Shown here piece after piece: positions 36,728 to 49,342 of a DNA stretch of 64,000 nt. Source of the DNA: an uncultured Gammaproteobacteria bacterium (GTDB lineage Bacteria; Patescibacteriota; Microgenomatia; Levybacterales; GWA1-39-11); the NCBI GenBank assembly GCA_964485575.1, contig CAZAJO010000003.1, positions 19,722 to 83,721 on the forward strand, read 5' to 3'. The translations under genes were made by a program, and so were the position numbers. Positions within the stretch are counted from its first letter, which is position 1, and each line of letters opens with the position of its first letter. The notes below the pieces were generated by a model. That model had not been told where the DNA came from and made no database searches. It saw nothing but the letters and a program-made list of their open reading frames with translations.

Positions 36728-36816
36728 TGTCGAGCTCTACCAAAAAGTTAGAACTCTTCTTTATTAGCTCGCCCCTTCGGGGCTCGCAATGTTTCGCGGC
36801 GTGTGCGGGCGCCGCG
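36728..36816. repeat. IR-A: 89-bp perfect inverted-repeat copy (left boundary of the accessory segment)
   Basis: It is the exact reverse complement of 47486..47574 and starts with the TGTCG core. Confidence 0.9.
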
Positions 36817-37384
36817 AGAAAGTTATCATAATTATTTTTAGCGCGCGCAGTACAAAGAAATTTTTTTATATTTGTCCTTGTCCCGCCACCCGTACGCGGA
36901 CAAATCATAATTTGAAATTATTGTATCCCTTTAAAAAAGAAAACAAACAACGTTTGTCTCATCCTATAAATCCCACCCACCCAAGAAATATTGTGGCGGC
37001 GACCCCTTCCTTTGGGCGCAGGTCGCGCTAAGGCGCAACTCGCCAAAGTTTTGCCAGTTTTTAAAACCTCTAACAATCTCTTCCGGAGAAAATTTCCATT
37101 TAATACGGAAGCGCCGTCGGAGGGGTGTCCGCTTATTCGCCCCCGCCTTTTTTATTCTATCCCTCCTGTTTTACTTTCTTTGGGAAGACACATAATGACT
37201 CGTGCCGATGCTTTCTAAGACCCGAAGGATTTGCAATCGGCACTCGTGTGGGAGAAAAATACTTTGTAAAGTTCTTCCTAAGTCAACCGCTACCAGAAAA
37301 GTATTTTTCTCTTTTTAGGGCGCAATTCCAGACGGAGCGGGGGCGGCGGAGCCGCCAGGGAAAAGAAAAAAATATTGTGGACCA

Positions 37385-37566
37385 CAGAAGAACTGTGGAT
37401 GAATTTTTGAAATCCACAGATTGCCACAGTTTAGCCTCAACCTATCCACAGCTTGTGGACATCCACAGTCCTGTGGGTTTTACAAAAAACTTGAGGCTAT
37501 TTTTTTACATGTCTTGTGGGTACCCTGTGGGTTTTTGAAGCAAGATTTCCAAAACATCAACCCACA
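37385..37566. promoter_or_regulatory. Cluster of about 11 CCACAG/CTGTGG repeats, six resembling DnaA boxes (TTATCCACA) within 2 mismatches
   Basis: CTATCCACA at 37452..37460, AAATCCACA at 37420..37428 and ACATCCACA at 37469..37477, plus reverse copies. The run includes the palindromes TGTGGACCACA and CCACAGTCCTGTGG. Confidence 0.5.
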
Positions 37567-38108
37567 GAAAAGTCGATTTTTGGAATTCCCGACTCTGCGA
37601 TATTGCGCTCTATTTGTTGTCTCATATTTTTTGCATCCTCAAATTCCTTTCCTCTGGCCGCTGTCCTCTGAAGTAAAAGATCATTGCTAATTTGAAGGTC
37701 TACTATTAAATCCGCATCGAATACAATGGTTCCAAACACAGGCTCTCCAGGCCTTACTTTCACCCGTTCTTTTGCTAATCGTTCCATAGTTCTACCAATG
37801 TCTTCTGTCCATGGTTGCTGTTCGACATACACAGTTTCTTCAGGTGTTAGTTGGGGAAATATCAACTCGTCCATATCATGCGCACCAATGATGCTTTGGA
37901 GTAGAGTGGATTTACCGGTGCAAGTAGTACCGACCACAACGACCCGTTTGTCTTTATTCAGGTCAAGCACCGCTTGGAGTTTGTTTGCCAACTCTGATTT
38001 TTCACTGGGTATTTGGGAAACTTCTCTTTTAATTTTTTCTTCAGCCCTAGCTTTAACAATTTCAATTTGTATTCTTTGTCTTCTTAATTGTTCAAAAATG
38101 TTAGGCAT
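37557..38108 (-). CDS. P-loop NTPase, probable nucleoside/nucleotide kinase
   Basis: 183 aa with VVVVGTTCTGKSTLL Walker A and a small kinase-like size. Confidence 0.5.
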   Translation of the reverse strand: MPNIFEQLRRQRIQIEIVKARAEEKIKREVSQIPSEKSELANKLQAVLDLNKDKRVVVVGTTCTGKSTLLQSIIGAHDMDELIFPQLTPEETVYVEQQPWTEDIGRTMERLAKERVKVRPGEPVFGTIVFDADLIVDLQISNDLLLQRTAARGKEFEDAKNMRQQIERNIAESGIPKIDFSVG

Positions 38109-38111
38109 AGT

Positions 38112-38678
38112 TTATCGATTATTTTTTAAAATTTTACTATATATCAAATTTCTTATATAGTCTGCCTTGCTTATGTTTGATTGTTTTGATTGTTCAGAAA
38201 TAAATTTATACATCGAATCACTCATCATAAAATTAAACCTATTTGACAATATTTGTTTATTTGCAAAATTGAGATATTTATTGAATATTTCATTCAGTGT
38301 TTTTTTTGATTCTGGATTATACTGTTTAATCATTAGTAATCTGTTTGGATCTGCCAGGTATAAACCTGAATATCTTACTTGTGCTAAAAAGAGTGTTGGA
38401 ATTCCTTTTTGGAGTGCCTGAGACAATAAAAAACCAGCACCCGTACTTGAAATGGTTCCTTCAAAGACTAATCCATCGCATTTCAGCATCTCTTTAGAGA
38501 GCTTTTTGGCACGTTCTTCGAGCTCTTTTTCCGAAATAACACCCAGTTCGTGGGGCTCATCAAAAGAATGTTTAGAGAGTACCTCGTTTCCAAGAATTTC
38601 AAGCTCATCGACTATCTTACGATAATTGTTTTTTACTTTTGGATCAGACGATATACTTGCTAAGAAAAAAAGTTTCAT
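38112..38678 (-). CDS. Nucleoside 2-deoxyribosyltransferase-like (NDT/DNPH1-fold) protein with a C-terminal extension
   Basis: 188 aa. CDGLVFEGTISSTGAGFLLSQALQKGIPTLFL resembles the PF05014 core. Confidence 0.45.
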   Translation of the reverse strand: MKLFFLASISSDPKVKNNYRKIVDELEILGNEVLSKHSFDEPHELGVISEKELEERAKKLSKEMLKCDGLVFEGTISSTGAGFLLSQALQKGIPTLFLAQVRYSGLYLADPNRLLMIKQYNPESKKTLNEIFNKYLNFANKQILSNRFNFMMSDSMYKFISEQSKQSNISKADYIRNLIYSKILKNNR

Positions 38679-38688
38679 AGTGTTCTAC

Positions 38689-38716
38689 TTGATAAATTTT
38701 TTATTTGCCATATAAT
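38689..38716 (+). promoter_or_regulatory. Sigma70-like promoter for the methyltransferase-to-aminotransferase gene string
   Basis: TTGATA-N16-TATAAT, 40 bp upstream of the ATG at 38757. Confidence 0.5.
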
Positions 38717-38756
38717 ATCATAAAATGTTATGTAATGTATAACTTTTTTAGTTATT

Positions 38757-39443
38757 ATGGTCACGGAGAGATTAGACTTGAAACCTGTTCAGAGATTACT
38801 TGCTAGACATGCTCAACACAACTCTCCTTACTCGCAAGAGTTTGGAGGACTTAACTTAGTTATCTACCCAGACGTTTTTAATCCAGCCTATACTACGGTA
38901 AGTAGTTTATTACATGAAAATTTATCTATTGATCCCGGAGATAGAGTATTAGATATGTTTTGCGGATCTGGCGTACTGGGATTATCTGTAGCAGGATTAG
39001 CAGAAAAGGTTGTTGGTGTAGACATAGCTCCTATTGCAATAAAGTGCGCAACAGAAAACGCTTCAACCAATGGATTGTCGGAAAAAACTGAATTTAGATG
39101 CGGAAATGTATGGGGTGCGGTGAATGAAGGAGAAGTATTCGACTTAATTATTGCAAATCCTCCACTGCTTCCTGCCTACCCGGAATCCATACTTGAAGCT
39201 GCTGTTGCTGATAGTCCTGAGATGAGTATTACTACGAGATTTATAAATGAATGTGGAAAATACCTATCCAAAAAAGGACGAGCTTTAATGGCATTTTCTG
39301 ATGCATCTAGAATTGTATTTGATAATCCACTAGATCATGTTAGAAAATTATCGGACAAAGCAGGATTGTCTATGAATATAAAGGCCGAAAAAGATATGGT
39401 GTATGAAGTATATAGGATTTTAGAATTCAGGAGGAGCATGTAA
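38757..39443 (+). CDS. Class I SAM-dependent methyltransferase (HemK/small-MTase-like)
   Basis: 228 aa, LDMFCGSGVLG motif I and IIANPPL motif IV. Confidence 0.65.
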   Translation: MVTERLDLKPVQRLLARHAQHNSPYSQEFGGLNLVIYPDVFNPAYTTVSSLLHENLSIDPGDRVLDMFCGSGVLGLSVAGLAEKVVGVDIAPIAIKCATENASTNGLSEKTEFRCGNVWGAVNEGEVFDLIIANPPLLPAYPESILEAAVADSPEMSITTRFINECGKYLSKKGRALMAFSDASRIVFDNPLDHVRKLSDKAGLSMNIKAEKDMVYEVYRILEFRRSM

Positions 39444-40603
39444 TGGCAAAAATAATAGCAACTGCGGAAAACTTTGCATTTGGTCCTGCAAGTAAGCTTG
39501 TTACTGTTTGTGAGAAACTATTGCAAAATGGGCATGAAGTAATTTTTGTGGGAGAAGGCACAGCCTATCAGCTAGCAAGCAAAGTAAAATTCACAAAGAT
39601 TTATAAATATAACACTGACAATAAAAGTTTTATGAAATGGGGAGAAAAAGTCTTTAAACAAGCAGATATTCTTCTATCTAGTGTTGATAGATCAAGTGTG
39701 ATTCTCGCTAAAAAAATAGGGCTTCCCGTCATTTGGCTAGATATGCTTTTTTGGTGGTGGGATGAAATTCCAGAATATTTGTTCGATATAGATTTATATA
39801 TCCAACAAAATTCCGTGAAAAATGAAAGAAACATGAATAGATATAAGAATAAGATAAAAAACATGGTGATAGTGGGTCCGATTATTGATAAATCTTACAA
39901 TAAAAACAAGAAATTAAATCAACTACTTGTTGCTTTTGGAGGTTCCAATGCAGAAGGATGGGTAAAAATTGGAAGAGATACAAACTACCCTTATACTTTC
40001 GCAAATTTAATAATAAACAAAGTTCACACGGATAAATATGACAAAGTTTTATTTGCAGGAAATGAAGAGATTATGGCTAACCTGCAAAAAAAACACGGCA
40101 ACGAAAAGTTTAAATTTTCCATCCTTTCTCATGAAGAATGGCTAAGAGAAGTAGACAGATCTAGAGATATTTTAATCAATCCTGGGTTGGAGGCTCCACT
40201 AGAAGCAATAGCTTATGGTAAACCAATCTTTTTCCTTCCACCATATAACAGCAGCGCGTACGTGGAATTAGACGAATTTAGAGAGAAGGGATTAGCTGAT
40301 AAAAATAATTCAATTCATTTTTCTGATTATTTCCCTCATAAAAATTTAGCTGGAAGGGATTTAAAACAAATCATGACAGAATTCCTCGAGGAATTAAGAA
40401 AATTTGAAAATTCTCAAGAAATTTTGGACAATTGTGCAAGAAGAATTAATCAGTATCTACAATTATCCAGTAAAGAAAAGGATGCACAAAAACATAGACA
40501 GAACCAATTTATTAAAAGTTTGGGTAAAGAAGGATTGACAGATACAGTTTCTCTAATCAATAACATTATTTCTAATATTTCAAATAAACCATATGTTAAG
40601 TGA
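39443..40603 (+). CDS. Putative GT-B glycosyltransferase (MurG/UGT-like fold)
   Basis: 386 aa, N-terminal Rossmann-like MAKIIATAENFAFGPASKL..GHEV. Weak family assignment. Confidence 0.35.
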   Translation: MAKIIATAENFAFGPASKLVTVCEKLLQNGHEVIFVGEGTAYQLASKVKFTKIYKYNTDNKSFMKWGEKVFKQADILLSSVDRSSVILAKKIGLPVIWLDMLFWWWDEIPEYLFDIDLYIQQNSVKNERNMNRYKNKIKNMVIVGPIIDKSYNKNKKLNQLLVAFGGSNAEGWVKIGRDTNYPYTFANLIINKVHTDKYDKVLFAGNEEIMANLQKKHGNEKFKFSILSHEEWLREVDRSRDILINPGLEAPLEAIAYGKPIFFLPPYNSSAYVELDEFREKGLADKNNSIHFSDYFPHKNLAGRDLKQIMTEFLEELRKFENSQEILDNCARRINQYLQLSSKEKDAQKHRQNQFIKSLGKEGLTDTVSLINNIISNISNKPYVK

Positions 40604-41678
40604 AGTAGAGCCAATAGTTAACAAACATATGGCAAGTACTGAAAATGGGTACCTTTTAAGGAGATTAAGAGGCGGAATTAGTAGTGAAAACTATCAAGTA
40701 ACCCCTAACGTTCCTGATGAAGCAACCCACTCAGTAGTATTTACACTCTTTAGAGATCCATCTACCTGGGGTAGTATTGAAAGAGAAAATACTATTTATG
40801 ATCTTGTTAAAGATGATAAGGATGTTCGAATCCCTAAGATATTTGATTCAGGCATTGACAATATTGACGGTGTGCAAGTTGCCTTTTTACTCAGAGAATT
40901 TCTTGAAGGAGAAGACCTAGATACTATTTTAGATTCAAGACTTAACCCTCAGAGAAAAATGGGTGAAATAGCTGATATTGCAAAAGACTTAGGATTCAGA
41001 CTAGGAGCATTACATAGACATGATACTTCTATGTATGGTTTGATTGGAAAACCAAATAATGGATATACAAGTTGGGGTAATTATATTTTTGATGAGATAG
41101 AAAACGAAGCGCGACTTATTGGAGAAGTACCTCAAGAAAAGCAAATAGGAAGAACTAAGGCTGGAGATGTAGCTAAAACTTTATCTGGCTTAAGCGTCGT
41201 CTTCGGTACAATGCAAGATGCGTTTCGTATAAAAGAAAACCCGAGTTTAGCTCATGGCGATGCAAGGTTTGCGAATTTTATAGCCGAAAAAGACCATAAT
41301 AAATGGGGCATACAAGGAATGATTGACATGGAAGAAGCAACTGGCGGAGATCCCGAAATTGATATCGCCTTTATTGAAAATTGGCTGCACTTTGCGGATT
41401 ATAAAGTCGATTTCTATGCTCAATCACGGTATTTTACTCAAGGATATTTAAGTGTTAGAGGAATTAGCCCGAAATATAATGAGCGAAGATTAGCATATCA
41501 TGCTTTACGTTCTTTATCATACCTGAGAACAGTTTTTGGTTTTGATATAGATACTTTCTTGAGCATGAATTCGAGGAATGAGGCGTATGTGAAGAAACAT
41601 TTCGAAATTCTTGATTCCATTTCAAAGGGAAACGGTTTAGAGGATCTAGATATTAGACCTTTAATAAAGTTACATTAG
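40593..41678 (+). CDS. Phosphotransferase of the APH/choline-kinase family
   Basis: 361 aa with AHGDARFANF (catalytic HGD..N) and IDMEEATGGDPEIDIAF (DxE). Confidence 0.6.
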   Translation: MLSEVEPIVNKHMASTENGYLLRRLRGGISSENYQVTPNVPDEATHSVVFTLFRDPSTWGSIERENTIYDLVKDDKDVRIPKIFDSGIDNIDGVQVAFLLREFLEGEDLDTILDSRLNPQRKMGEIADIAKDLGFRLGALHRHDTSMYGLIGKPNNGYTSWGNYIFDEIENEARLIGEVPQEKQIGRTKAGDVAKTLSGLSVVFGTMQDAFRIKENPSLAHGDARFANFIAEKDHNKWGIQGMIDMEEATGGDPEIDIAFIENWLHFADYKVDFYAQSRYFTQGYLSVRGISPKYNERRLAYHALRSLSYLRTVFGFDIDTFLSMNSRNEAYVKKHFEILDSISKGNGLEDLDIRPLIKLH

Positions 41679-41679
41679 T

Positions 41680-42681
41680 ATGAAGAATAAACACGATGAA
41701 AGTTTCTATAAAAATAAAAAAGTATTAATTACTGGAGGCTTAGGATTTTTAGGCAGTAGTCTTGCAATTGAATTAGTAAAGCTTGGGGCTGACGTTACAG
41801 TTGTAGACTCGCTTATAAAAGGGTACGGAGGGAATATATATAATGTCCAGGATGTAAAAAATAAGATAAACATAAACATTTCTGACGTTCGGGATAGATA
41901 TAGCATGGATTACCTGGTGAAGGATAAGGAGATAATGTTTAATTTAGCAGGTACGTTAAGTCATGTTGATAGTATGGCTGATCCCTTTTCCGATCTTGAA
42001 ATAAATTGCAAAAGCCAGCTTTCTATATTGGAATCTTGTAGGCATAATAATCCAGAAATTAAAATTGTATGGGCGGGAACGAGAAATCAATATGGTAGAG
42101 CACAATATTTACCCGTTAATGAAGATCATCCACAAGTTCCGACAGATGTTAACGGAATTAATAATATTGCCGGTGAACAATATCACCTTCTCTACAATTC
42201 AGTCTATGGATTAAAAACCTGTTCTCTGAGGTTAACAAATTGTTATGGCCCAAGACATCAAATGCGACATTCCAGGCAAGGGGTTTTAAACTGGTTTATA
42301 AGACAAATTATGGATGGAGAAGAAATAAAATTATTTGGTTCAGGAATACAAATTCGAGATATTAACTTTGTTGATGATGTGACCAATGCATTTCTATTGG
42401 TAGGTGCCGCTGATAACGTTTGGGGGCAGGCGTACAATTTAGGAGGAAACGCTGTAAGCCTGGAAGAGTTTGTAAAAAAAATAATTAAAGTCTATGGTAA
42501 AGGTAGATTTAGCTCAGCAGAGTTTACTGATGATAGAAAAAAAATAGAGATAGGGAATTATATAGCAGATTGGGGAAAAATAAAAAAAGATGTAAATTGG
42601 AAACCAATTGTTAACGTAGAAAAAGGCATAGAAAGAACAATTAAGTACTATGAAAAAAACAAAAAACAATATTGGGGTTAA
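41680..42681 (+). CDS. NAD-dependent sugar-nucleotide epimerase/4,6-dehydratase (SDR family)
   Basis: 333 aa with a VLITGGLGFLGSSL Rossmann motif and a YxxxK-type core. Confidence 0.8.
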   Translation: MKNKHDESFYKNKKVLITGGLGFLGSSLAIELVKLGADVTVVDSLIKGYGGNIYNVQDVKNKININISDVRDRYSMDYLVKDKEIMFNLAGTLSHVDSMADPFSDLEINCKSQLSILESCRHNNPEIKIVWAGTRNQYGRAQYLPVNEDHPQVPTDVNGINNIAGEQYHLLYNSVYGLKTCSLRLTNCYGPRHQMRHSRQGVLNWFIRQIMDGEEIKLFGSGIQIRDINFVDDVTNAFLLVGAADNVWGQAYNLGGNAVSLEEFVKKIIKVYGKGRFSSAEFTDDRKKIEIGNYIADWGKIKKDVNWKPIVNVEKGIERTIKYYEKNKKQYWG

Positions 42682-43780
42682 GGTCCCATTTTTTCCAGCG
42701 GCAATAGAATACGCTTCGATAATGCATGATTTGCATGATGCCCTAGATGAGGTCGGAAGAAGTGGAAGATTAATTTTTGGACAAAAAGTTAATACCCTTG
42801 AAAACACAATCGCAAAATTAATGGAGTCTAAATATTGTGTAACTTGTGCTTCCGGAACTGATGCGATCATGCTTTCACTAAAGGCATTAGGAATCAAATC
42901 TGGTGATGAAGTAATTGTTCCTGCAAATGCGTACCCAACAGTATTTGGAGTTGTCCTAGCGGGTGCAATACCAAAATTAATAGATGTTAAAAATGAAACA
43001 GGTAATTTAAATCCCAAGCTTCTTAAAGATGCAATAACAAAAAAAACAAAAGCTGTCATTTTAGTTCATCTTTATGGGTTGGCTGCTGATATTCATGAAG
43101 TCAAAAAAATTTGTAAACAAAAAGGGGTATATTTGATTGAAGATTGTGCTCAGGCTTTTGGGTCAATGCATAAAGGAAGTCCGGTTGGTTCATTCGGGGA
43201 TATATCAATATTAAGTTTTTACCCAACAAAAAATCTTGGTGCATTAGGTGATGGTGGTGCGATAGTAACATCAATCAAAAAGGTACATGAAAAACTCTTG
43301 ATGTTGAGAATGTACGGAGAGAAAAAACGTTATGACAGTGAGTTGCTAAGCGGTCACAGTCGCCTTGATGAGTTACAAGCTGCATTTTTACTAAAAAAAC
43401 TTAGAAAATTGAACGGTTGGATTACAAGACGAAAAAGGCTTGCTAAAATTTACATGGAATCTTTATCTAATATTAAAAACCTATCACTACCCATAGATCA
43501 TTTAGAAGAGCATACGTATCATTTGTTCGTTGTTCAAACTGAATATCGAGATGAACTTCAGCTTTGGCTTTCTAAAAATGGCATAGAAACTGGTATCCAT
43601 TATCCAAAATCAATACATTTAACAAAAACATTTTCTTTTGCTGGAAAAGTTGGAGATTTTCCTGTTTCTGAAAAACATAACAGAACTGTACTGTCTCTAC
43701 CCATGCATCAGTTTTTAACTTATAAACAAATAAAATATGTTTCTAGTAAAATTGTAGATTTTTTTGAGACAATTAGTTAA
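42650..43780 (+). CDS. DegT/DnrJ/EryC1/StrS-family PLP-dependent sugar aminotransferase
   Basis: 376 aa with SGTDAIMLSLKALGI and an SFYPTKNLGALGDGG PLP-lysine block. Confidence 0.8.
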   Translation: MKKTKNNIGVKVPFFPAAIEYASIMHDLHDALDEVGRSGRLIFGQKVNTLENTIAKLMESKYCVTCASGTDAIMLSLKALGIKSGDEVIVPANAYPTVFGVVLAGAIPKLIDVKNETGNLNPKLLKDAITKKTKAVILVHLYGLAADIHEVKKICKQKGVYLIEDCAQAFGSMHKGSPVGSFGDISILSFYPTKNLGALGDGGAIVTSIKKVHEKLLMLRMYGEKKRYDSELLSGHSRLDELQAAFLLKKLRKLNGWITRRKRLAKIYMESLSNIKNLSLPIDHLEEHTYHLFVVQTEYRDELQLWLSKNGIETGIHYPKSIHLTKTFSFAGKVGDFPVSEKHNRTVLSLPMHQFLTYKQIKYVSSKIVDFFETIS

Positions 43781-43789
43781 TTAAAAAAT

Positions 43790-44215
43790 ATGAAAGTTTT
43801 TATAGCAGGTATAATGCAAGGAAATCGTAAGGATAAACTGATCCACTCTCAAGATTATAGAGAAATCATATCTAATAAATTAGATCTGATTGTGGAAAAC
43901 GTTGAGGTAATCGATCCTGATAAGACTGACCCGGATAGATTATCTTATAACCATGAACAAGCAAAAGAAATGTTTTTTAAATATTGTAAAATAGCCGGAG
44001 AAGCGGACTTGTTAATAGCCTACATTCCAGAAGCCAGTATGGGATCTGCGGTGGAAATGTGGATGGCGTATCAAGCAAGAATCCCAATAGTAACTATCTC
44101 TTCAATGAAAGCAAATTGGGTAATTAAATTGTTATCAAACGAGATATATGAAACCTTAGAAGAATTCATTGAAAATTTTGACAACGATATGCTTAGCAAG
44201 CTAAAAACCATTTAG
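43790..44215 (+). CDS. Second nucleoside 2-deoxyribosyltransferase-like protein
   Basis: 141 aa. ADLLIAYIPEASMGSAVEMWMAYQARIPIV resembles the NDT-family core. Confidence 0.4.
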   Translation: MKVFIAGIMQGNRKDKLIHSQDYREIISNKLDLIVENVEVIDPDKTDPDRLSYNHEQAKEMFFKYCKIAGEADLLIAYIPEASMGSAVEMWMAYQARIPIVTISSMKANWVIKLLSNEIYETLEEFIENFDNDMLSKLKTI

Positions 44216-44824
44216 ATGATCTATAAAGTTAATATTAATTAATTTATACTCTTTGCTTATTGGGTCAAAATATACAGTAGTAATTGAAGCCTCATTAATC
44301 GTATCTTCGAGGGAATCAGTAAGTGATGGTACTACTGATTTCAATAATTTCTCATCGAATATATTCCGTAAAAAATCCCCAATAATTCCCCCATGCGTAA
44401 CTAATACTAGATTAAGATCAGAATAATCTGACGAACTAATTATCTTATGTATTCTATTTCCAGCATCTCTAGACGAGTCGCCGACAGGCGGAATCCAATC
44501 TCTGTCTACTGTGGATCTGTTCCACATCTCTAAAAATTGTTCAAATGACTGATTTTGATCATCTCCCCAATTTGCACGCTCTCTAAGCAAGTCGTCGACC
44601 TTAAATGTAAGGTTTAATTCCTTTGAGATAATTTCCGCGGTTTGCTTAGATCTTAAAATGGGGCTAGACAAAACAACGTGTACATTTTTATTAGAGAGAT
44701 GTTGGGCGGTTTTTTTAACCTGCGCTTGCCCTTTAGCTGTCAATGGAGGATCACCTTTAATTTTTTGCTTCTCTCCGTGTCTTATTATGTAGATAGTGGT
44801 AGCCATAAAAAAATTATACAACAA
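44201..44824 (-). CDS. Histidine phosphatase (phosphoglycerate-mutase / SixA family)
   Basis: 207 aa with an RHGE catalytic motif (IIRHGEK) and a downstream His. Confidence 0.7.
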   Translation of the reverse strand: MLYNFFMATTIYIIRHGEKQKIKGDPPLTAKGQAQVKKTAQHLSNKNVHVVLSSPILRSKQTAEIISKELNLTFKVDDLLRERANWGDDQNQSFEQFLEMWNRSTVDRDWIPPVGDSSRDAGNRIHKIISSSDYSDLNLVLVTHGGIIGDFLRNIFDEKLLKSVVPSLTDSLEDTINEASITTVYFDPISKEYKLININFIDHLNGF

Positions 44825-45170
44825 ATTACTTAAATTTAAGACAATTTATGAACCTGAGCATAATATTGCATTTTTTACTCTTGCATTTGTAAGAAAAAGA
44901 AGCAAAAATATTTATATGGATGAAAACCAGTATAAAGAAAGTCCTGAAACTAGAGAGATTAAAAGTGAGATAGCGCAGGAGAAACCTCGTGATGAGGAAG
45001 GGCATTTTGTTCACGTAGAGCAGCCCCAGACCTCCACAACACCACATTTTAATCCTATCTCTCATTCCTCCACGATGAAACAGCCATCCACAAATCCAAT
45101 GATGATGAGCTTATCGATGTCCATGTGGGAAATCCTCTTCACAAGATTGTGGAACTGCTTCAAGATATAA
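44796..45170 (+). CDS. Hypothetical protein (may start at ATG 44916)
   Basis: ORF only, with Q/P/T-rich low-complexity sequence. Possibly one frameshifted gene together with 45125..45517. Confidence 0.2.
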   Translation: MVAIKKLYNKLLKFKTIYEPEHNIAFFTLAFVRKRSKNIYMDENQYKESPETREIKSEIAQEKPRDEEGHFVHVEQPQTSTTPHFNPISHSSTMKQPSTNPMMMSLSMSMWEILFTRLWNCFKI

Positions 45171-45517
45171 AAAAGCAAAAAGCATTTAGTTTTACTCTTA
45201 AAGGTTCTTTGGGTATTGCGGGGGTAGCACTTGCCCTTGGGATGTTCGGAATTTTCGGAGCGGGAAATTTACTGTGCGAGAAAGGCACTCAAAAAGAGAT
45301 TGGGGTAATCAAAACCCTCAGTGTTATGGAAGAGGAACCAGTGGCAATTCCGCTTTTGTCAGACATTATTGATTATTTTGCGCCAAGAGCCAGACACTAC
45401 AGCGTTGTTTTGATTAGAAAAGATGAGTCCGTCATTTCCCTTCCTTATTCTCGGAACGTAAATTTTTCTCAATACAATAATGCCCCCGTCATCGCCACCG
45501 GCAACTACGACGCTTGA
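45125..45517 (+). CDS. Hypothetical small membrane protein (GTG start)
   Basis: 130 aa, with one TM-like segment GSLGIAGVALALGMFGIFGAG. Confidence 0.25.
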   Translation: MGNPLHKIVELLQDIKKQKAFSFTLKGSLGIAGVALALGMFGIFGAGNLLCEKGTQKEIGVIKTLSVMEEEPVAIPLLSDIIDYFAPRARHYSVVLIRKDESVISLPYSRNVNFSQYNNAPVIATGNYDA

Positions 45518-45616
45518 GGCCAGAAACTAAAAAGTCACCGACCCGTCTGCTCTTGAAGGTTACAATACACTTCCCTAATCTATCCAAGCTCTCTTCTTCA
45601 AAAAACACGATAACAA

Positions 45617-45645
45617 TTGCTATCAGCCTCAAACAGGCGTATAAT
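45617..45645 (+). promoter_or_regulatory. Sigma70-like promoter upstream of the OLD-family nuclease gene
   Basis: TTGCTA-N17-TATAAT ending 15 nt before ATG 45661. This implies a very short leader. Confidence 0.4.
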
Positions 45646-45660
45646 TTTGCTAGCTCAAAC

Positions 45661-47295
45661 ATGTTTATAAAATCCCTAAAAATCAAGAACTTCAGATCAA
45701 TAAAACATCTTGATATTGAACCAAGCGATTTATGCGCTATTATTGGACCCAATAGTGCTGGAAAAACAAATATTCTAAAAGCAATAGATTTGATTCTTGG
45801 AGAAGGATGGACAACGAAAGCAAAAGTTGCAAAAGAGCTATTCAATGATCCAGACAAGCCGGTTGAAATAGCAATAGAATTAGATGAATCTATAAGCTTC
45901 ACGGGAGGAAAAGGATATGACGTTACTGTTTCAAGTATAGAGTTGGAAATGACACTACGTCCTGAACTACATGTTCAGACAACAATAAATAGGGGTGATA
46001 AATTTTACGATCAAGAAAAATTTAAAAAATTATGCCATTTTATTTACATCCCTTCAGAAAGGTCTCTAGAGTCAGAATTGAGAGTTAGTCAGTGGACGAT
46101 GTTAGGTAAATTGATGAAACTTATTTATGAAGCATACCTTACAAACTACGACAACGATGAAGTAAAGTTAAAAGATGCATTTGAAAAGGAAATAAATCCG
46201 GCAAAAGAATTCCTTGAAAAAGATTTTTCAAATGGTTCAAGTCTAATAACTTTTAAAAAGTTTTCTGATGTATTTAAAAAATATTGTCTTAAAAATAGTG
46301 CGGGATTAGCAAATGGCTTTGAACCTGTCCTTAATATTTACAATATAAACTGGTTTTACAAAACTTTACAAATACATGTCAAGGAGGATCTGCCAGATAA
46401 ACATTTTGAAAGCGATGAAGTTGGTGCCGGAATGCAAACGCTTCTTATGATTTCAATTTTTCAAACCTATGCAGAACTTATGGGTGGAAGAGTTATCTTT
46501 GGAGTTGAAGAACCAGAGATTTATTTATATCCACAGGCACAAAGGTCTCTTTATAAAAACTTTATTGAATTATCAAACAATACGCAGATATTTTACACAA
46601 CACATAATCCAAATTTTGTTGATGCAGCCAGACCAGATAACATGCTTCTATTGAGAAAATCAACAGATAAGGGCACATATAAATTAGAAAAAAATGAATA
46701 TTTTAACTCAACAATTGCAGAGAAAGAGAAATATAAAATTTATACACATTTTAATCCAGAGAGAAATGAAGTATTTTTTGCGAGAAAAGTGTTATTGGTT
46801 GAAGGAGATTCCGATAAAATACTTTTTACCACGCTTTGTGAAGAAAAGTGGAATATAGATATAGATTTACTAGGTGTATCAATTATATCTTGTGGTGGAA
46901 AAAGTGGTGTTAATTATTTTATAGGTGTTTGTAATCTAATAGGCTTAGACGATTATTTTGCCGTTTGGGATGAGGACAATGATCATTTTCAACCAGATAA
47001 AGATTTCCTACCATATACGTTTGCAGCAAACAAAGGGCTAGAAATTAAAGAAAATTTAGAGAAATTTTTAAAGCTTTCTTCGAATAAAGACGCAACTAAA
47101 GTCAAGAATGCTTACGAATGGGCAATTAATATAAAAACAGATGACATCCCTCAAGAATTTAGGATTATAAAAGATTTCATTATTGAAGGATATCATCCAA
47201 AGAGTAGTAATAAGGTTGAGGTAGTAACTACAAATGTAATTGTCGAAACTACAGAAGTAGATACAGAACCTAACCCAGACGATATTCCATTTTAA
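45661..47295 (+). CDS. OLD-family (overcoming lysogenization defect) ATPase-Toprim nuclease, standalone class-1-like
   Basis: MFIKSLKIKNFRSIKHLDIE..IIGPNSAGKTN gives the ABC-ATPase N-terminus. The C-terminal Toprim block is VLLVEGDSDKILF. I chose the start at the family-typical N-terminus rather than the 45514 extension. Confidence 0.75.
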   Translation: MFIKSLKIKNFRSIKHLDIEPSDLCAIIGPNSAGKTNILKAIDLILGEGWTTKAKVAKELFNDPDKPVEIAIELDESISFTGGKGYDVTVSSIELEMTLRPELHVQTTINRGDKFYDQEKFKKLCHFIYIPSERSLESELRVSQWTMLGKLMKLIYEAYLTNYDNDEVKLKDAFEKEINPAKEFLEKDFSNGSSLITFKKFSDVFKKYCLKNSAGLANGFEPVLNIYNINWFYKTLQIHVKEDLPDKHFESDEVGAGMQTLLMISIFQTYAELMGGRVIFGVEEPEIYLYPQAQRSLYKNFIELSNNTQIFYTTHNPNFVDAARPDNMLLLRKSTDKGTYKLEKNEYFNSTIAEKEKYKIYTHFNPERNEVFFARKVLLVEGDSDKILFTTLCEEKWNIDIDLLGVSIISCGGKSGVNYFIGVCNLIGLDDYFAVWDEDNDHFQPDKDFLPYTFAANKGLEIKENLEKFLKLSSNKDATKVKNAYEWAINIKTDDIPQEFRIIKDFIIEGYHPKSSNKVEVVTTNVIVETTEVDTEPNPDDIPF

Positions 47296-47354
47296 CTACA
47301 TTTGATATATATCCTCTCAGTTGAAAAACTTCGTGAAACTGATATATTAAACTC

Positions 47355-47436
47355 GAACACAACACTTTGGATCTCTTTTTTGATGGCCGCTTTGGACAAT
47401 TGGAGAGATCCTGTTGTGTTCAACCAGAGCGGCCAT
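47355..47436. repeat. Interleaved inverted repeats A-B-A'-B' between the OLD gene and IR-A'
   Basis: GAACACAACA..GGATCTC (47355..47375) pairs with GAGATCCTGTTGTGTTC (47405..47421). ATGGCCGCTTTGG (47383..47395) pairs with CCAGAGCGGCCAT (47424..47436). The two hairpins are mutually exclusive. Confidence 0.6.
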
Positions 47437-47485
47437 TTTAGAAAATTTTTGCGTTTTCAAAAGGCGAGCCAACACATTTAAGGTA

Positions 47486-47574
47486 CGCGGCGCCCGCACA
47501 CGCCGCGAAACATTGCGAGCCCCGAAGGGGCGAGCTAATAAAGAAGAGTTCTAACTTTTTGGTAGAGCTCGACA
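47486..47574. repeat. IR-A': 89-bp perfect inverted copy of IR-A
   Basis: It is the exact reverse complement of 36728..36816 and ends in CGACA, the reverse complement of the core. Confidence 0.9.
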
Positions 47575-47672
47575 TTTAAAGAGTTTTCATTTTTAAGCTC
47601 AGAAAGTTGGAGTCCCGCAAGTGCGGGACGGATTGCCCCAAAGCCCTTTTTGAGAATTGGGGAAAGTTGCCG
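47570..47672. repeat. IR-B: 103-bp inverted-repeat copy immediately upstream of the serine recombinase gene
   Basis: It is the reverse complement of 49099..49202 apart from one 1-bp indel, contains the palindrome GTCCCGCA-AG-TGCGGGAC, and overlaps IR-A' by the 5-bp CGACA core. Confidence 0.9.
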
Positions 47673-47704
47673 AAAAGAAGTAGAAAACGCAAAAATTTAA
47701 TACC

Positions 47705-49342
47705 ATGAAATACATTGCATACTGCAGGAAATCCAGAGATGAAGCTGATAAACAGGTCTTGTCTATTGAGGCCCAAATTGCAGAGTTACAGGAATTTGCA
47801 AAACGTGAGAAAATTGAAATTGTTGAATTTGTCGAAGAAGCAAAAACTGCCAAAGCCCCCGGACGTGAGAAATTTTCAGAAGTAATTCAAAAGCTAGAGC
47901 GCGGACTTGCCCAGGGGATTATTGCGTGGCATCCCGACCGCTTGGCAAGAAACAGTATTGATGGTGGAAAGATTATCTATTTACTCGATACCGGAAAAAT
48001 AAAGGATTTAAAGTTTCCAACCTTCTGGTTTGAAAATACTCCTCAGGGAAAATTTATGTTAAATATCGCTTTTGGACAAAGTAAATATTACATAGATAAT
48101 CTTTCTGAAAATGTGAGGCGGGGGCTTCGGCAGAAAATACGTAATGGCGTCTGGCCGCACAAGCCAACGTATGGATATGTAAATAATCCTAAAACCCGCG
48201 GTATTGATGTTGACCCTTTTGCCTCTTCGGGAATCATAAAAGCATATGAAGCGTTTTGCAAAGGAGACAAGACCTTTACAGATATTTCAAAGTTATTATT
48301 CAAATGCGGCTTGCAACAAAGAAACGGAAAGCCACTTCATATAAATGAAGTAAGAAAAATACTGTCCGACAAGTTTTATATTGGCATTATGAAATTTAAG
48401 GGGGAATATCATCCCGGAACACATAAGCTATTTATCCCAAAAGATTTATTTCAAAAAGTACAGGAGGAATTAAAATGGCGTGAGGCACATCACAATAAAT
48501 CTTTTGGCTTTCCGTTTCTGGGACTTATGAAATGTAGTGAGTGTGGCGCTTCCATAACCGCTGAAAAACATACAAAATTCTATAAAGGTACCAACCGTCG
48601 TCCCACCTATGTTTACTACCGCTGTACTAAAAAAATGGGTCCTTGCTCACAGAAAATGATAAAAGGTGAACTATTGGAAGAACAACTGAGAGAAATTGTT
48701 GCAAGCTGCGCATTACCGGAAAGCTGGATTCCTCAATGGCTTTCCTGGGTTGAGAGGTATGAAATATCTGAAAAAGAATTATCGGCTTCATCTATTCAAA
48801 AATTTCAGGATGAGATAGTATCACTCGACAAAAAGTTAAATATCCTGCTTGATGGTTTTTTGGAAAATATAGTTGACAGTGATACATATAAAAGAAAGAA
48901 AAATGAAATTTTTGAAGAAAAGATACTTCTTGAAGAACAAATCGCAAAATTAAAGGGTGAGGATGGAAACCGGCTCGAACTTCTTCGGGAATTAATAGAA
49001 GTGTCGTCACAATGCGAAAAAATTGCGCGCGCTAAAAACAATTGCGAGGATTTGGCAATCCTCGCGAAACGTGTCGGCTCGAACTTCTTTTTAAAGGAAC
49101 GGCAACTTTCCCCAATTCTCAAAAAGGGCTTTGGGGCAATCCGTCCCGCACTTGCGGGACTCCAACTTTCTGAGCTTAAAAATGAAAACTCTTTAAATGT
49201 CGGGGTGCAGGGAATTGAACCCTGGCCGCACGACCCCCAGCCGTACATTCTACCGTTAAACCACACCCCGAGCGAAGCGAGGGGAGCCAAGACAAAATCT
49301 CTGATTTTGGCTTACACCCCGATAGGTCGCTCCATATTTTAA
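47705..49342 (+). CDS. Large serine recombinase (integrase/invertase family); true C-terminus uncertain
   Basis: MKYIAYCRKSRDE is the resolvase catalytic-Ser N-terminus. A recombinase domain (GVWPHKPTYGY) is followed by a zinc ribbon (CSECG..YYRCTKK..C) and a coiled-coil. The ORF stays open through IR-B' and the antisense tRNA-Pro until 49342. Confidence 0.8.
   Translation: MKYIAYCRKSRDEADKQVLSIEAQIAELQEFAKREKIEIVEFVEEAKTAKAPGREKFSEVIQKLERGLAQGIIAWHPDRLARNSIDGGKIIYLLDTGKIKDLKFPTFWFENTPQGKFMLNIAFGQSKYYIDNLSENVRRGLRQKIRNGVWPHKPTYGYVNNPKTRGIDVDPFASSGIIKAYEAFCKGDKTFTDISKLLFKCGLQQRNGKPLHINEVRKILSDKFYIGIMKFKGEYHPGTHKLFIPKDLFQKVQEELKWREAHHNKSFGFPFLGLMKCSECGASITAEKHTKFYKGTNRRPTYVYYRCTKKMGPCSQKMIKGELLEEQLREIVASCALPESWIPQWLSWVERYEISEKELSASSIQKFQDEIVSLDKKLNILLDGFLENIVDSDTYKRKKNEIFEEKILLEEQIAKLKGEDGNRLELLRELIEVSSQCEKIARAKNNCEDLAILAKRVGSNFFLKERQLSPILKKGFGAIRPALAGLQLSELKNENSLNVGVQGIEPWPHDPQPYILPLNHTPSEARGAKTKSLILAYTPIGRSIF
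49099..49202. repeat. IR-B': 104-bp inverted copy of IR-B, ending at the tRNA-Pro 3' end
   Basis: It matches the reverse complement of 47570..47672 with one extra G, and terminates with the TGTCG core overlapping the last bases of the tRNA. Confidence 0.9.
49200..49270 (-). tRNA. tRNA-Pro (anticodon GGG)
   Basis: A manually folded 71-nt cloverleaf on the minus strand has a 7-bp acceptor stem (CGGGGUG/CACCCCG), a D-arm with GG and a T-arm CAGGG-UUCAAUU-CCCUG. The anticodon loop is CU-GGG-GG with U33 and G37. CCA is not encoded. Confidence 0.8.

What the first reader, a model, noticed from the sequence alone, without database searches (positions are those of the whole stretch)
36728..49270. 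12.5-kb accessory segment bounded by two inverted-repeat pairs, a large serine recombinase and the 3' end of tRNA-Pro
The repeat pairs are IR-A/IR-A' (89-bp perfect, 36728..36816 and 47486..47574) and IR-B/IR-B' (103/104-bp with one indel, 47570..47672 and 49099..49202). One pair brackets a 10.7-kb cargo and the other brackets a large serine recombinase gene. The outermost repeat ends within 2 nt of the 3' end of tRNA-Pro(GGG), a classic integration hotspot. Repeats this long and this identical in an AT-rich genome imply recent or ongoing recombination, because gene conversion keeps them identical. Two readings are possible. It may be a tRNA-targeting integrative element with its recombinase at one end. 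Alternatively it may be two adjacent recombinase-controlled invertible segments that share a central site. Serine invertases act on inverted sites.
Basis: partly seen in the sequence, partly recalled or inferred. Interest (0 to 1): 0.9.

Follow-up and report, generated by a model that had tools for sequence, protein, structure and literature searches.

The report
tRNA-inserting recombinase element with spare attP
The 12.5-kb segment is a mobile element inserted at the end of a proline tRNA gene by a large serine recombinase, and its "two inverted-repeat pairs" are the two halves of its attachment site plus a complete spare copy kept upside-down in front of the recombinase gene, a layout that recurs in dozens of ultra-small (Patescibacteria) bacterial genomes and that I could not find described.

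Summary
Both inverted-repeat pairs are perfect: 89 nt and 103 nt, with no indel. They share a 5-nt core, TGTCG, that overlaps the 3' end of tRNA-Pro(GGG).

The segment is a real insertion. A relative has YfiH, tRNA-Pro and RecA adjacent. The same element, 99.9-100% identical, sits in hosts whose flanks are only 85-92% identical.

Site anatomy:
- IR-A is attL.
- IR-B' is attR.
- IR-A'+IR-B is an intact, inverted copy of attP just upstream of the large serine recombinase (LSR) gene.

The LSR reading frame crosses attP. Integration therefore swaps a conserved C-terminal tail for antisense-tRNA read-through.

This layout recurs in 69 of 81 homologous loci, nearly all Patescibacteria, at many different tRNAs. 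Arms are about 100% identical within a locus but about 50% between loci, which indicates concerted evolution.

Two metagenomes carry the 10.7-kb segment in the opposite orientation relative to the LSR. The LSR itself always faces the tRNA.

The element and its site anatomy are well supported. The role of the spare attP is inferred: most likely an inversion switch that restores or regulates the recombinase. I found no prior description.

The parts
36728..36816 (+). attL (site S1): 5-nt core TGTCG (36728-36732) plus IR-A, the P'-type half of attP. IR-A also carries the last 11 codons of the recombinase's native reading frame.
36955..37400 (+). Conserved, GC-rich non-coding block just inside attL. 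It is a candidate structured RNA followed by a terminator-like hairpin at 37382-37398.
   Evidence: It is 76-86% identical at nucleotide level to the same position in L051, L017, L031, L027 and L016. It has long-range invariant pairs and a hairpin with 5 compensatory pairs. A terminator-like site was found. There is no Rfam family match.
37557..38678 (-). Two cargo genes of unknown role: a 183-aa P-loop NTPase-like protein (37557-38108) and a 188-aa protein (38112-38678).
   Evidence: All family matches are weak.
38757..44824 (.). Cargo resembling a sugar or small-molecule modification cluster. It encodes a SAM methyltransferase (38757-39443), a 386-aa unknown (39443-40603), an APH-type kinase (40593-41678), an NAD epimerase/dehydratase (41680-42681), a DegT aminotransferase (42650-43780), a nucleoside-deoxyribosyltransferase-like protein (43790-44215) and a histidine phosphatase (44201-44824, minus strand).
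   Evidence: Pfam. His_Phos_1 comes from the gene table of L095.
45514..47295 (+). Cargo: OLD-family ATPase/TOPRIM nuclease, a candidate anti-phage defence gene.
   Evidence: Pfam AAA_15 and OLD-like_TOPRIM. PADLOC 'Old' at 5.5e-47.
47434..47458 (+). Arm C of a third inverted repeat that brackets the internal attP. It is complementary to the recombinase leader.
   Evidence: pair I5. Conserved by covariation in 33 of 38 loci. A 16-bp stem closes the internal attP in the RNA fold, z = -5.6.
47486..47672 (-). Site S2: an intact spare attP in inverted orientation, made of IR-A' (47486-47574) and IR-B (47570-47672) with core CGACA at 47570-47574. Its reverse complement equals IR-B' joined to IR-A, which is the attP of the excised form including the native 3' end of the recombinase ORF.
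47683..47707 (+). Arm C', the leader of the recombinase gene, overlapping the ATG at 47705.
47705..49342 (+). Large serine recombinase gene as it reads in the integrated state (545 aa). The family-conserved sequence ends at the core (49202). The last 46 codons are read-through of the antisense tRNA.
49100..49202 (+). attR (site S3): IR-B', the P-type half of attP, which codes recombinase residues about 466-499. The core TGTCG is at 49198-49202.
49199..49270 (-). tRNA-Pro(GGG), the integration target (B'-type half of attB). Its 3' end is kept intact by the element's core.

Best explanation
Window 36728-49202 is an integrated mobile element. It belongs to a large family whose only conserved gene is a large serine recombinase (LSR) and which inserts at the 3' ends of tRNA genes in Patescibacteria.

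Shown:
- The element's attachment site attP is IR-B' joined to IR-A through the core TGTCG.
- Recombination with attB (the YfiH-side flank joined to the tRNA-Pro 3' end) produced attL (IR-A) and attR (IR-B').
- The recombinase ORF crosses attP. In the un-integrated context it ends 11 codons past the core with a family-conserved tail (...ELYQKVRTLLY). In the chromosome that tail is replaced by unconserved antisense-tRNA read-through.
- A second complete copy of attP, including the tail codons, sits inverted directly upstream of the recombinase gene (IR-A'+IR-B). It is enclosed by a third, covarying inverted repeat.
- The arms of this copy are kept identical to attL and attR.

Inferred:
- Identity is maintained by gene conversion between the arms.
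- The arms make both the recombinase cassette and the cargo invertible.
- Flipping the recombinase cassette across IR-B/IR-B' would rejoin the gene to its native tail in the spare attP and place it downstream of the tRNA promoter, an 'on' state.
- The arrangement seen in all consensus genomes, with the recombinase converging on the tRNA and carrying a junk tail, would be the stable 'off' state.
- On this view the spare attP acts as a DNA-encoded switch for recombinase activity in elements that carry no recognisable directionality factor.
For: - Insertion: L003 has YfiH, tRNA-Pro and RecA adjacent with nothing between them.
- Mobility: the element is 99.9-100% identical in L115 and L116, and 98.9% in L114, while DNA beyond the tRNA is 87-92% identical and DNA beyond YfiH about 80%.
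- Recombinase identity: Pfam domains, invariant Y6/R8/S10 and four Cys, and a model with a long coiled coil matching the SPbeta, LI, Bxb1 and phiC31 integrases.
- Site anatomy: a TCGAAC-like motif lies at +13 on the tRNA side and +17/18 on the IR-A side. The shift is +4 or +5 in 38 of 39 loci. This is the attB/attP difference reported for serine integrases (PMC11722253).
- Family-wide layout: 69 of 81 loci have the pair flanking the recombinase. About 35-38 also have an adjoining second pair, and 34 of those arm pairs were scored for identity. In 41 loci a minus-strand tRNA starts at the outer end of the downstream arm, across 11 amino-acid specificities.
- Split gene: the tail motif [IV]-R-T-x-F occurs in 47 of 56 attP-context reconstructions, with wobble-position variation. 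Integrated tails are 0.7-115 aa and unconserved. In the top 100 protein clusters, 3 have native tails and the great majority of the other 97 have tRNA read-through tails.
- Concerted evolution: within-locus identity has a median of 100%. IR-A arms are perfect in 25 of 34 loci and IR-B arms in 44 of 59. The nearest other locus has a median of about 50% and a maximum of 91%.
- Alternative isomer: L013 (JGI 3300045384) and L111 (SRR8643115) join the attL-side end of the cargo, through IR-A'.IR-B, to the recombinase 5' end at 100% identity. L112 and L113 show native-tail recombinases of other elements joined through attP to the end of the cargo that normally abuts the spare attP.
- Third repeat.
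Against: - No locus or contig shows the recombinase cassette itself flipped next to a tRNA (0 of 41). The proposed 'on' state is therefore unobserved.
- No excised circle junction of the simple kind (recombinase 3' end, then IR-B'.IR-A, then the attL-side end of the cargo) and no empty site in the window's own strain were found.
- The metagenome pattern scan found nothing.
- Canonical serine integrases do not recombine attP with attL or attR, so inversion would need RecA or a non-canonical activity.
- L013 is also chimeric at 48956 with high-GC DNA, which weakens it as a witness. L111 is independent but short.
- In relatives, the conserved block inside attL is always distal to the recombinase, so cargo inversion is not frequent.
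- Whether the tail matters for activity is unknown. CGA is strongly preferred for the Arg codon, so part of the tail's conservation could reflect DNA recognition rather than the protein.
- The third repeat does not cover the ribosome-binding site in loci that have one, so its role is open.
Confidence: 0.6

Rival explanations
1. The spare attP is a regulatory site, not a recombination substrate. Recombinase bound to a full attP between a cargo-side promoter and its own start codon, or the stem formed by the third repeat around it, represses or insulates the recombinase gene. On this view arm identity is a by-product of gene conversion, and the rare inverted isomers are accidents of homologous recombination.
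For: The copy always lies 30-150 nt upstream of the start codon. A covarying stem encloses it. A promoter-like site at 47321-47348 would transcribe through it. Consensus genomes show a single orientation.
Against: A binding site needs about 50 bp. Here 187 bp, and up to about 550 bp in L091, is kept identical to attL and attR. The copy also preserves the tail codons in frame with IR-B', which a simple operator would not need.
Confidence: 0.2
2. The spare attP is a second working attP. It gives the excised form two equivalent sites, and it remains active in the chromosome. There it can recombine with other tRNA genes or with incoming DNA that carries attB, producing inversions or capturing DNA.
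For: It has complete P-type geometry. In L037 the upstream arm abuts a real tRNA-Glu(UUC) while the downstream arm abuts tRNA-Glu(CUC), as expected if the spare attP had recombined with a second attB. Cargo between conserved ends differs completely among close relatives.
Against: Integration through the spare copy should leave the recombinase 5' end next to the tRNA, and this is never seen. A live attP in the chromosome would be hazardous to the host. L037 is a single case with diverged arms (83%).
Confidence: 0.12
3. The region is primarily a phase-variation device. Two invertible segments controlled by an invertase switch cargo expression (surface-sugar genes, OLD nuclease), and the tRNA position is incidental.
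For: There are inverted sites around both segments. Both relative orientations of the 10.7-kb segment exist in nature. The cargo includes glycan-type enzymes and a defence nuclease.
Against: The whole unit is absent from a relative and has been transferred between hosts. The enzyme is a large serine integrase with attP/attB asymmetry, not a small invertase. The layout is independent of cargo, which ranges from 0.7 to 10.7 kb with no shared genes. Orientation is fixed in consensus genomes.
Confidence: 0.05
4. The repeats come from mis-assembly, or from two adjacent insertion-sequence-like units each with terminal inverted repeats.
For: Contigs often break at the arms.
Against: Independent assemblers and samples give the same structure. 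Breaks fall at k-1 = 30 nt into the repeats, as expected for true repeats. The cores of the middle and outer sites are inverted and usually lack a palindromic dinucleotide, so neither unit could excise on its own. There is no target-site duplication.
Confidence: 0.02

Closest known systems
Serine-integrase (large serine recombinase) integrative elements and prophages (phiC31, Bxb1, A118/LI, SPbeta; LSR-borne genomic islands)
   Same: The domain set and fold are the same. Recombination is attP x attB through a short shared core. The outer DNA-binding-domain motif lies 4-5 bp closer to the centre in attB than in attP (PMC11722253). The integrated element is flanked by hybrid attL and attR sites.
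   Different: No directionality factor is recognisable, and in minimal members no other conserved gene is present. The target is the 3' end of tRNA genes, with a T-arm-like motif used on both sites. A second, inverted, intact attP is kept inside the element. The recombinase ORF crosses attP.
Integration-split genes: SSV1-type archaeal integrases (attP inside int) and mycobacteriophage BPs-type integration-dependent immunity (from my own knowledge)
   Same: attP lies inside a coding sequence of the element, so the protein made from the integrated form differs at its C-terminus from the protein made by the free form.
   Different: Those systems use tyrosine integrases. Here only the last 9-16 codons are exchanged, and a spare copy of the lost 3' end is kept inverted upstream of the gene. 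No functional consequence has been shown here.
Serine-invertase switches (Hin H segment, Gin/Mu G segment, Cin, PinQ)
   Same: As with hin, the recombinase gene lies inside a segment bounded by inverted sites. As with gin and the G segment, an adjacent segment is bounded by inverted sites. Alternative 3' ends for a gene can be selected by inversion.
   Different: The enzyme is a large integrase, not a small invertase with a C-terminal HTH. The arms are 90-370 nt of perfect repeat rather than about 26-34 bp sites. The unit is itself mobile. Consensus genomes show one orientation.
Yeast 2-micron plasmid (FLP/FRT inside long perfect inverted repeats)
   Same: The predicted excised form would be a circle divided by two long perfect inverted repeats, each containing the recombinase's site, with the recombinase gene in one unique segment. 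The repeats are homogenised.
   Different: FLP is a tyrosine recombinase. No replication genes are present here and no circle has been observed. The amplification role of FLP has no counterpart here.
Serine-recombinase transposons (Tn4451 TnpX, Tn5397 TndX, IS607)
   Same: These are minimal elements moved by a serine recombinase without an accessory directionality protein.
   Different: They lack the attP/attB asymmetry, the tRNA targeting and the internal inverted site copy seen here.

Membership tests
Large serine recombinase / serine integrase | N-terminal resolvase-type catalytic domain with the nucleophilic serine in a Y-x-R-x-S context | tested here: met
   PF00239 at 4e-22 over residues 4-150. 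Y6, R8 and S10 are invariant in 30 homologues.
Large serine recombinase / serine integrase | Recombinase domain plus zinc-ribbon domain carrying an inserted coiled coil | tested here: met
   PF07508 and PF13408. C277, C280, C307 and C314 are invariant. The model of homologue P0046 has helices 339-386 and 392-418. Its top fold matches are the SPbeta, LI, Bxb1 and phiC31 integrases at E values from 1e-18 to 1e-10.
Large serine recombinase / serine integrase | attP and attB half-sites share motifs, but the outer motif is 4-5 bp closer to the centre in attB | tested here: met
   The TCGAAC-like motif is at +13 on the tRNA side and at +17/18 on the IR-A side. The shift is +4/+5 in 38 of 39 loci. 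The rule is taken from PMC11722253.
Large serine recombinase / serine integrase | A cognate recombination directionality factor for excision | tested here: inconclusive
   No protein is shared across cargos. Only a small Xre-type HTH occurs, in 6 of 33 loci. Directionality factors are diverse, so absence cannot be proven.
Large serine recombinase / serine integrase | Catalysis of attP x attB recombination | not testable with these tools
   This needs an in vitro or in vivo assay.
tRNA-targeting integrative genomic island | Occupied and empty versions of the same chromosomal site | tested here: met
   The window has 12.5 kb between YfiH and tRNA-Pro. In L003 they are 7 nt apart. The flank next to the tRNA differs between hosts, so an exact empty site for the window's strain was not found.
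tRNA-targeting integrative genomic island | Element more conserved than its chromosomal flanks (horizontal transfer) | tested here: met
   The element is 99.98-100% identical in L115 and L116, and 98.9% in L114. Flanks are 85-92% identical on one side and about 80% on the other.
tRNA-targeting integrative genomic island | Excised circular form | tested here: inconclusive
   No contig shows the recombinase 3' end joined through attP to the attL-side end of the cargo. L112 and L113 show attP-intact, native-tail junctions for other family members, but their upstream context is cut off.
Serine-invertase phase switch (Hin/Gin type) | Small serine recombinase with a C-terminal helix-turn-helix | tested here: not met
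   The protein has about 500 aa and the integrase domain set.
Serine-invertase phase switch (Hin/Gin type) | Both orientations of the segment present in populations | tested here: inconclusive
   The opposite relative orientation of cargo and recombinase occurs in 2 samples, against the window arrangement in at least 5. The recombinase cassette is never seen flipped relative to the tRNA (0 of 41). No read-level data are available.
Integration-split element gene (SSV1 / BPs type) | attP lies within a coding sequence, so integration changes the product | tested here: met
   The ORF crosses the core. A conserved tail is present in attP context in 47 of 56 loci, and tails in the chromosome are unconserved.
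Integration-split element gene (SSV1 / BPs type) | The change alters stability or activity of the product | not testable with these tools
   The model places the tail in a helix (residues 494-510, block pLDDT about 81). Its function is unknown.
Insertion sequence / transposon with terminal inverted repeats | The two outer ends are inverted copies of each other, and a target-site duplication is present | tested here: not met
   The outer ends are IR-A and IR-B', which are different sequences. Each pairs with the middle site instead. There is no duplication beyond the 5-nt core.

The most novel reading that the evidence does not exclude
A very large family of minimal mobile elements in Patescibacteria may control a serine integrase without any directionality protein. 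Integration cuts off the enzyme's own C-terminal tail. An inverted spare attP upstream of the gene would then let a rare DNA inversion rebuild the full gene, and couple it to the tRNA promoter, to re-activate mobility. This would be a DNA-encoded on/off and directionality switch.
Probability: 0.3. Interest if true: 0.85.

Novelty: new variant of a known kind. Interest (0 to 1): 0.72.

Why it matters
Serine integrases are major genome-engineering tools, and their one-way behaviour is normally reversed by a separate protein. A natural family in which the integrase gene is rewired by its own integration, and carries a built-in spare site, would be a new way of controlling directionality.

The family also offers a ready set of enzymes that read a conserved tRNA feature, the T-arm, and so address many different tRNA genes.

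It also appears to be a dominant kind of mobile element in Patescibacteria, whose mobile DNA is poorly known. One scan returned 594 confirmed hits among species-representative genomes. The elements ferry defence and glycan-type genes between hosts.

Tried and rejected
- Assembly artefact: rejected.
- Each repeat-bounded unit as an independent transposon able to excise: rejected. The cores of the middle and outer sites are inverted, and in many loci they contain no palindromic dinucleotide.
- Prophage: rejected. There are no phage genes, and only 5 relatives occur in IMG/VR.
- IR-A as a decayed tRNA rather than a P-type half-site: rejected because of the constant +4/+5 shift.
- Arm hairpins as intrinsic terminators: no T-runs on reading, and the pattern scan found none in 47250-47800.
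- Conserved directionality factor or other core gene in the cargo: none found.
- The third repeat as a simple mask of the ribosome-binding site: not general.
- A known RNA family for the block at 36955-37400: none in Rfam.
- Exact-pattern scan of metagenome contigs for the middle-site junction: 0 hits, evidently because that collection lacks the relevant contigs.
- Six literature searches on large serine recombinases, inverted repeats, Patescibacteria/CPR and tRNA targets: nothing found that describes this layout.
- A 61-aa junction ORF used as a probe: it found the second inverted-isomer contig, L111.

Full report
**Observation**

The window holds two perfect inverted-repeat pairs:
- 36728-36816 / 47486-47574, 89 nt.
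- 47570-47672 / 49100-49202, 103 nt.

No indel is needed. The two middle arms overlap by CGACA. Its complement, TGTCG, starts the left arm and ends the right arm.

tRNA-Pro(GGG) lies at 49199-49270 on the minus strand, so the right arm overlaps its 3' end by 4 nt.

The ORF 47705-49342 encodes a 545-aa protein with Resolvase, Recombinase and Zn_ribbon_recom domains. It runs through the right arm and the antisense of the tRNA.

The structure is real:
- JGI contigs from four samples reproduce it at 99-100% identity.
- Logan k=31 contigs from many runs stop exactly 30 nt inside the arms, as expected at true repeats.

**It is an insertion, and it moves**

Contig L003 encodes a RecA identical in protein sequence. 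There YfiH, tRNA-Pro and RecA are adjacent, with 7 nt between the YfiH start codon and the tRNA 3' end.

The element is more conserved than its surroundings:
- L115 is 99.98% identical to the window's element and L116 is 100% identical. DNA beyond the tRNA is 87-92% identical.
- L114/L095 is 98.9% identical across the element, with 79-87% flanks.

In L006 a quite different recombinase-like ORF reads into the same tRNA end, so the site is a hotspot.

**Site anatomy**

I write the sites as half-sites:
- Left site: flank | IR-A.
- Right site: IR-B' | tRNA.
- Reverse complement of the middle site: IR-B' | IR-A.

So attP is IR-B'.IR-A, and attB is flank.tRNA-3'. The outer sites are attL and attR. 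The middle site is a complete attP in inverted orientation, ending 32 nt before the recombinase start codon.

**The layout is family-wide**

A scan of species-representative genomes returned 594 confirmed relatives, and I held 80 of them. Record titles name Microgenomates, Woesebacteria, Gottesmanbacteria, Shapirobacteria, Saccharibacteria and other Patescibacteria. A set of 'binchicken' MAGs is labelled otherwise.

Counts, including the window:
- 69 of 81 loci have a near-perfect inverted pair, with one arm upstream of the recombinase start and the other over its 3' end.
- About 35-38 also have a second pair, with one arm adjoining (usually abutting) the first and the other 0.7-10.7 kb further upstream. 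Of these, 34 arm pairs were scored for identity.
- In 41 loci a minus-strand tRNA begins at the outer end of the downstream arm. These cover 11 amino-acid specificities: Pro, Gln, Glu, Arg, Leu, Ser, Lys, Trp, Tyr, Ala and Gly.
- No locus has a tRNA abutting the upstream arm, except the special case L037.

**The sites follow serine-integrase rules**

A TCGAAC-like motif, the tRNA T-arm, lies at +13 from the junction on the tRNA side in 29 of 39 loci. It lies at +17/18 on the IR-A side in 33 of 39. The shift is +4 or +5 in 38 of 39.

A 4-5 bp inward displacement of the outer DNA-binding-domain motif is exactly what distinguishes attB from attP half-sites in serine integrases (PMC11722253).

A structure model of homologue P0046 has the expected domains and long coiled coil. 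It matches the SPbeta, LI, Bxb1 and phiC31 integrases.

**The recombinase gene is split by integration**

I reconstructed the ORF in attP context by following the downstream arm with the reverse complement of what lies left of the upstream arm. In that context the ORF ends 9-16 codons past the core.
- The tail is conserved: ..(L/V)(Y/F)-x-K-(I/V)-R-T-x-F.. For the window it is NVELYQKVRTLLY*.
- 47 of 56 loci have the motif.
- Codons vary at wobble positions (ATT/ATC/ATA, GTT/GTC, ACG/ACT/ACC), which points to selection on the protein.
- CGA is over-used for Arg, which points to an overlapping DNA constraint.

In the chromosome the tail is replaced by 0.7-115 unconserved residues. Among the best 100 protein clusters, 3 carry native tails and the great majority of the other 97 carry tRNA read-through.

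The spare attP keeps the tail codons in frame with its copy of the arm. In the model the tail is a helix, residues 494-510.

**Concerted evolution**

Over the 56 nt (IR-A) or 70 nt (IR-B) next to the core, within-locus identity has a median of 100%. IR-A arms are perfect in 25 of 34 loci and IR-B arms in 44 of 59. The most similar arm from any other locus has a median of about 50% and never exceeds 91%.

Conservative site-specific recombination cannot copy sequence. Gene conversion by homologous recombination between arms is therefore the simplest cause, but this is an inference. A few loci have both pairs decayed to 83-90% (L025, L056, L075).

**Isomers**

Two contigs from independent samples join the reverse complement of the attL-side cargo end to the middle site and the recombinase 5' end, at 100% identity:
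- L013 (JGI 3300045384) joins the reverse complement of 36728-38207 to 47486-48956.
- L111 (Logan SRR8643115) joins the reverse complement of 36728-37528 to 47486-47829.

This is the opposite relative orientation of cargo and recombinase. The window arrangement occurs in the window itself, L095/L114, L115, L116 and L118.

L112 and L113, from other family members, show native-tail recombinases joined through attP to the cargo end that normally abuts the spare attP.

In relatives, a conserved block just inside attL is always distal to the recombinase. So one isomer dominates.

**Other conserved features**

- A third inverted repeat brackets the spare attP: 47434-47458 against 47683-47707. It is present in 33 of 38 loci. 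Clades have different sequences but retain complementarity. As RNA it closes a multi-branch fold, z = -5.6.
- A conserved GC-rich non-coding block follows attL (about 36955-37400). It has long-range invariant pairs, a covarying hairpin and a terminator-like end, and it matches no Rfam family.

**Cargo**

No protein is shared across the family. In the window the cargo is a methyltransferase / kinase / epimerase / DegT aminotransferase cluster plus an OLD-family nuclease.

**Mechanism**

What is shown is an integrase-borne element at a tRNA, with attL, attR, a spare inverted attP and a self-split integrase gene.

What is inferred is the purpose of the spare attP. My preferred reading is as follows:
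- The arms make the recombinase cassette invertible.
- Flipping across IR-B/IR-B' would rejoin the gene to its native tail and place it downstream of, and co-directional with, the tRNA.
- The arrangement seen in all consensus genomes is then the stable 'off' state.

This explains four things:
- The spare copy keeps the tail codons.
- The spare copy is inverted.
- The arms are long and homogenised.
- Only one orientation accumulates.

The flipped cassette has never been observed. Canonical integrases also do not recombine attP with attR.

Rivals are an operator or insulator role, a second working attP (L037 is suggestive), or a cargo phase switch.

**Novelty**

Six literature searches found no description of this layout. 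The enzyme class and tRNA-island lifestyle are known. The conserved inverted spare attP combined with a self-split integrase gene is a new variant.

Noticed in passing
window 36955-37400 (+); L051 4648-5075, L017 5012-5410, L031 5385-5780, L027 660-1070, L016 2885-3335: A conserved GC-rich non-coding block lies just inside attL. Its invariant elements are CCCACCCACCCA, GGCGGCGACCCC, and GCCCCCGCC pairing with GCGGGGGC. It has a hairpin with five compensatory pairs and a terminator-like end. It matches no Rfam family and is a candidate new structured RNA.
   Followed up: partly
window 47434-47458 and 47683-47707; 33 of 38 related loci: A third inverted repeat encloses the internal attP, with one arm in the recombinase leader. 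The sequence differs between clades but complementarity is kept. Its role (RNA stem, paired operators or a DNA structure) is unknown.
   Followed up: partly
L044 370-5850; proteins P0002, P0004, P0006, P0007, P0009 and others; L109, L110: There are recombinase-in-recombinase insertions. A sister lineage of these elements integrates inside the recombinase gene of a resident element, between ...GKFMLS and AFGQSKYY.... There CAG TCG AAA offers a T-arm-like TCGAA at about +14. This produces roughly 900-aa fusion ORFs and orphan N-terminal fragments of 117 residues.
   Followed up: partly
L037 9796-9954 and 11425-11582: The recombinase cassette is flanked by two real, convergent tRNA-Glu genes (UUC and CUC) instead of IR-A' and a tRNA. 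It looks as if the spare attP recombined with a second tRNA gene, giving a chromosomal inversion.
   Followed up: partly
L013 2863-3120 and L014 1315-1572 (breakpoint at window 48956): In one sample, seen in both the JGI and Logan assemblies, the recombinase gene is cut at codon 418 and continues into high-GC foreign coding sequence. This is either a chimera or a real junction. The breakpoint coincides with the end of the 28-nt direct repeat 42797-42824 / 48929-48956.
   Followed up: no
L006 2-727: An unrelated recombinase-like ORF (zinc-ribbon and coiled-coil C-terminal part) reads into the same tRNA-Pro(GGG) 3' end in another strain. At least two recombinase lineages therefore use this tRNA.
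   Followed up: partly
L062 9030-9061 vs 10089-10120; also L058, L061, L066, L078, L086: In a clade of minimal elements, the 30-37 nt directly inside arm A are a perfect inverted copy of recombinase nt about 89-120. This could be an antisense or remnant feature.
   Followed up: no
L117 8396-9087: One JGI contig has the cargo ending at the OLD stop codon (window 47295) and then continuing into a ribosomal protein S18 gene. This is either a different context or a chimera.
   Followed up: no
window 47321-47420: A promoter-like site (TTGAAA-16-TATATT with an upstream TG) is followed by nested hairpins (GAACACAACA...TGTTGTGTTC and ATGGCCGCT...AGCGGCCAT), all upstream of the spare attP. This stretch is conserved with L027.
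   Followed up: no
L114 11636-13891, L115 3112-5101, L116 8442-10697: In three JGI contigs that are 99-100% identical to the window over the recombinase gene, no gene was called for it in the collection's gene tables. The window's 545-aa product is also not on record. Automated annotation may therefore under-report this family.
   Followed up: no
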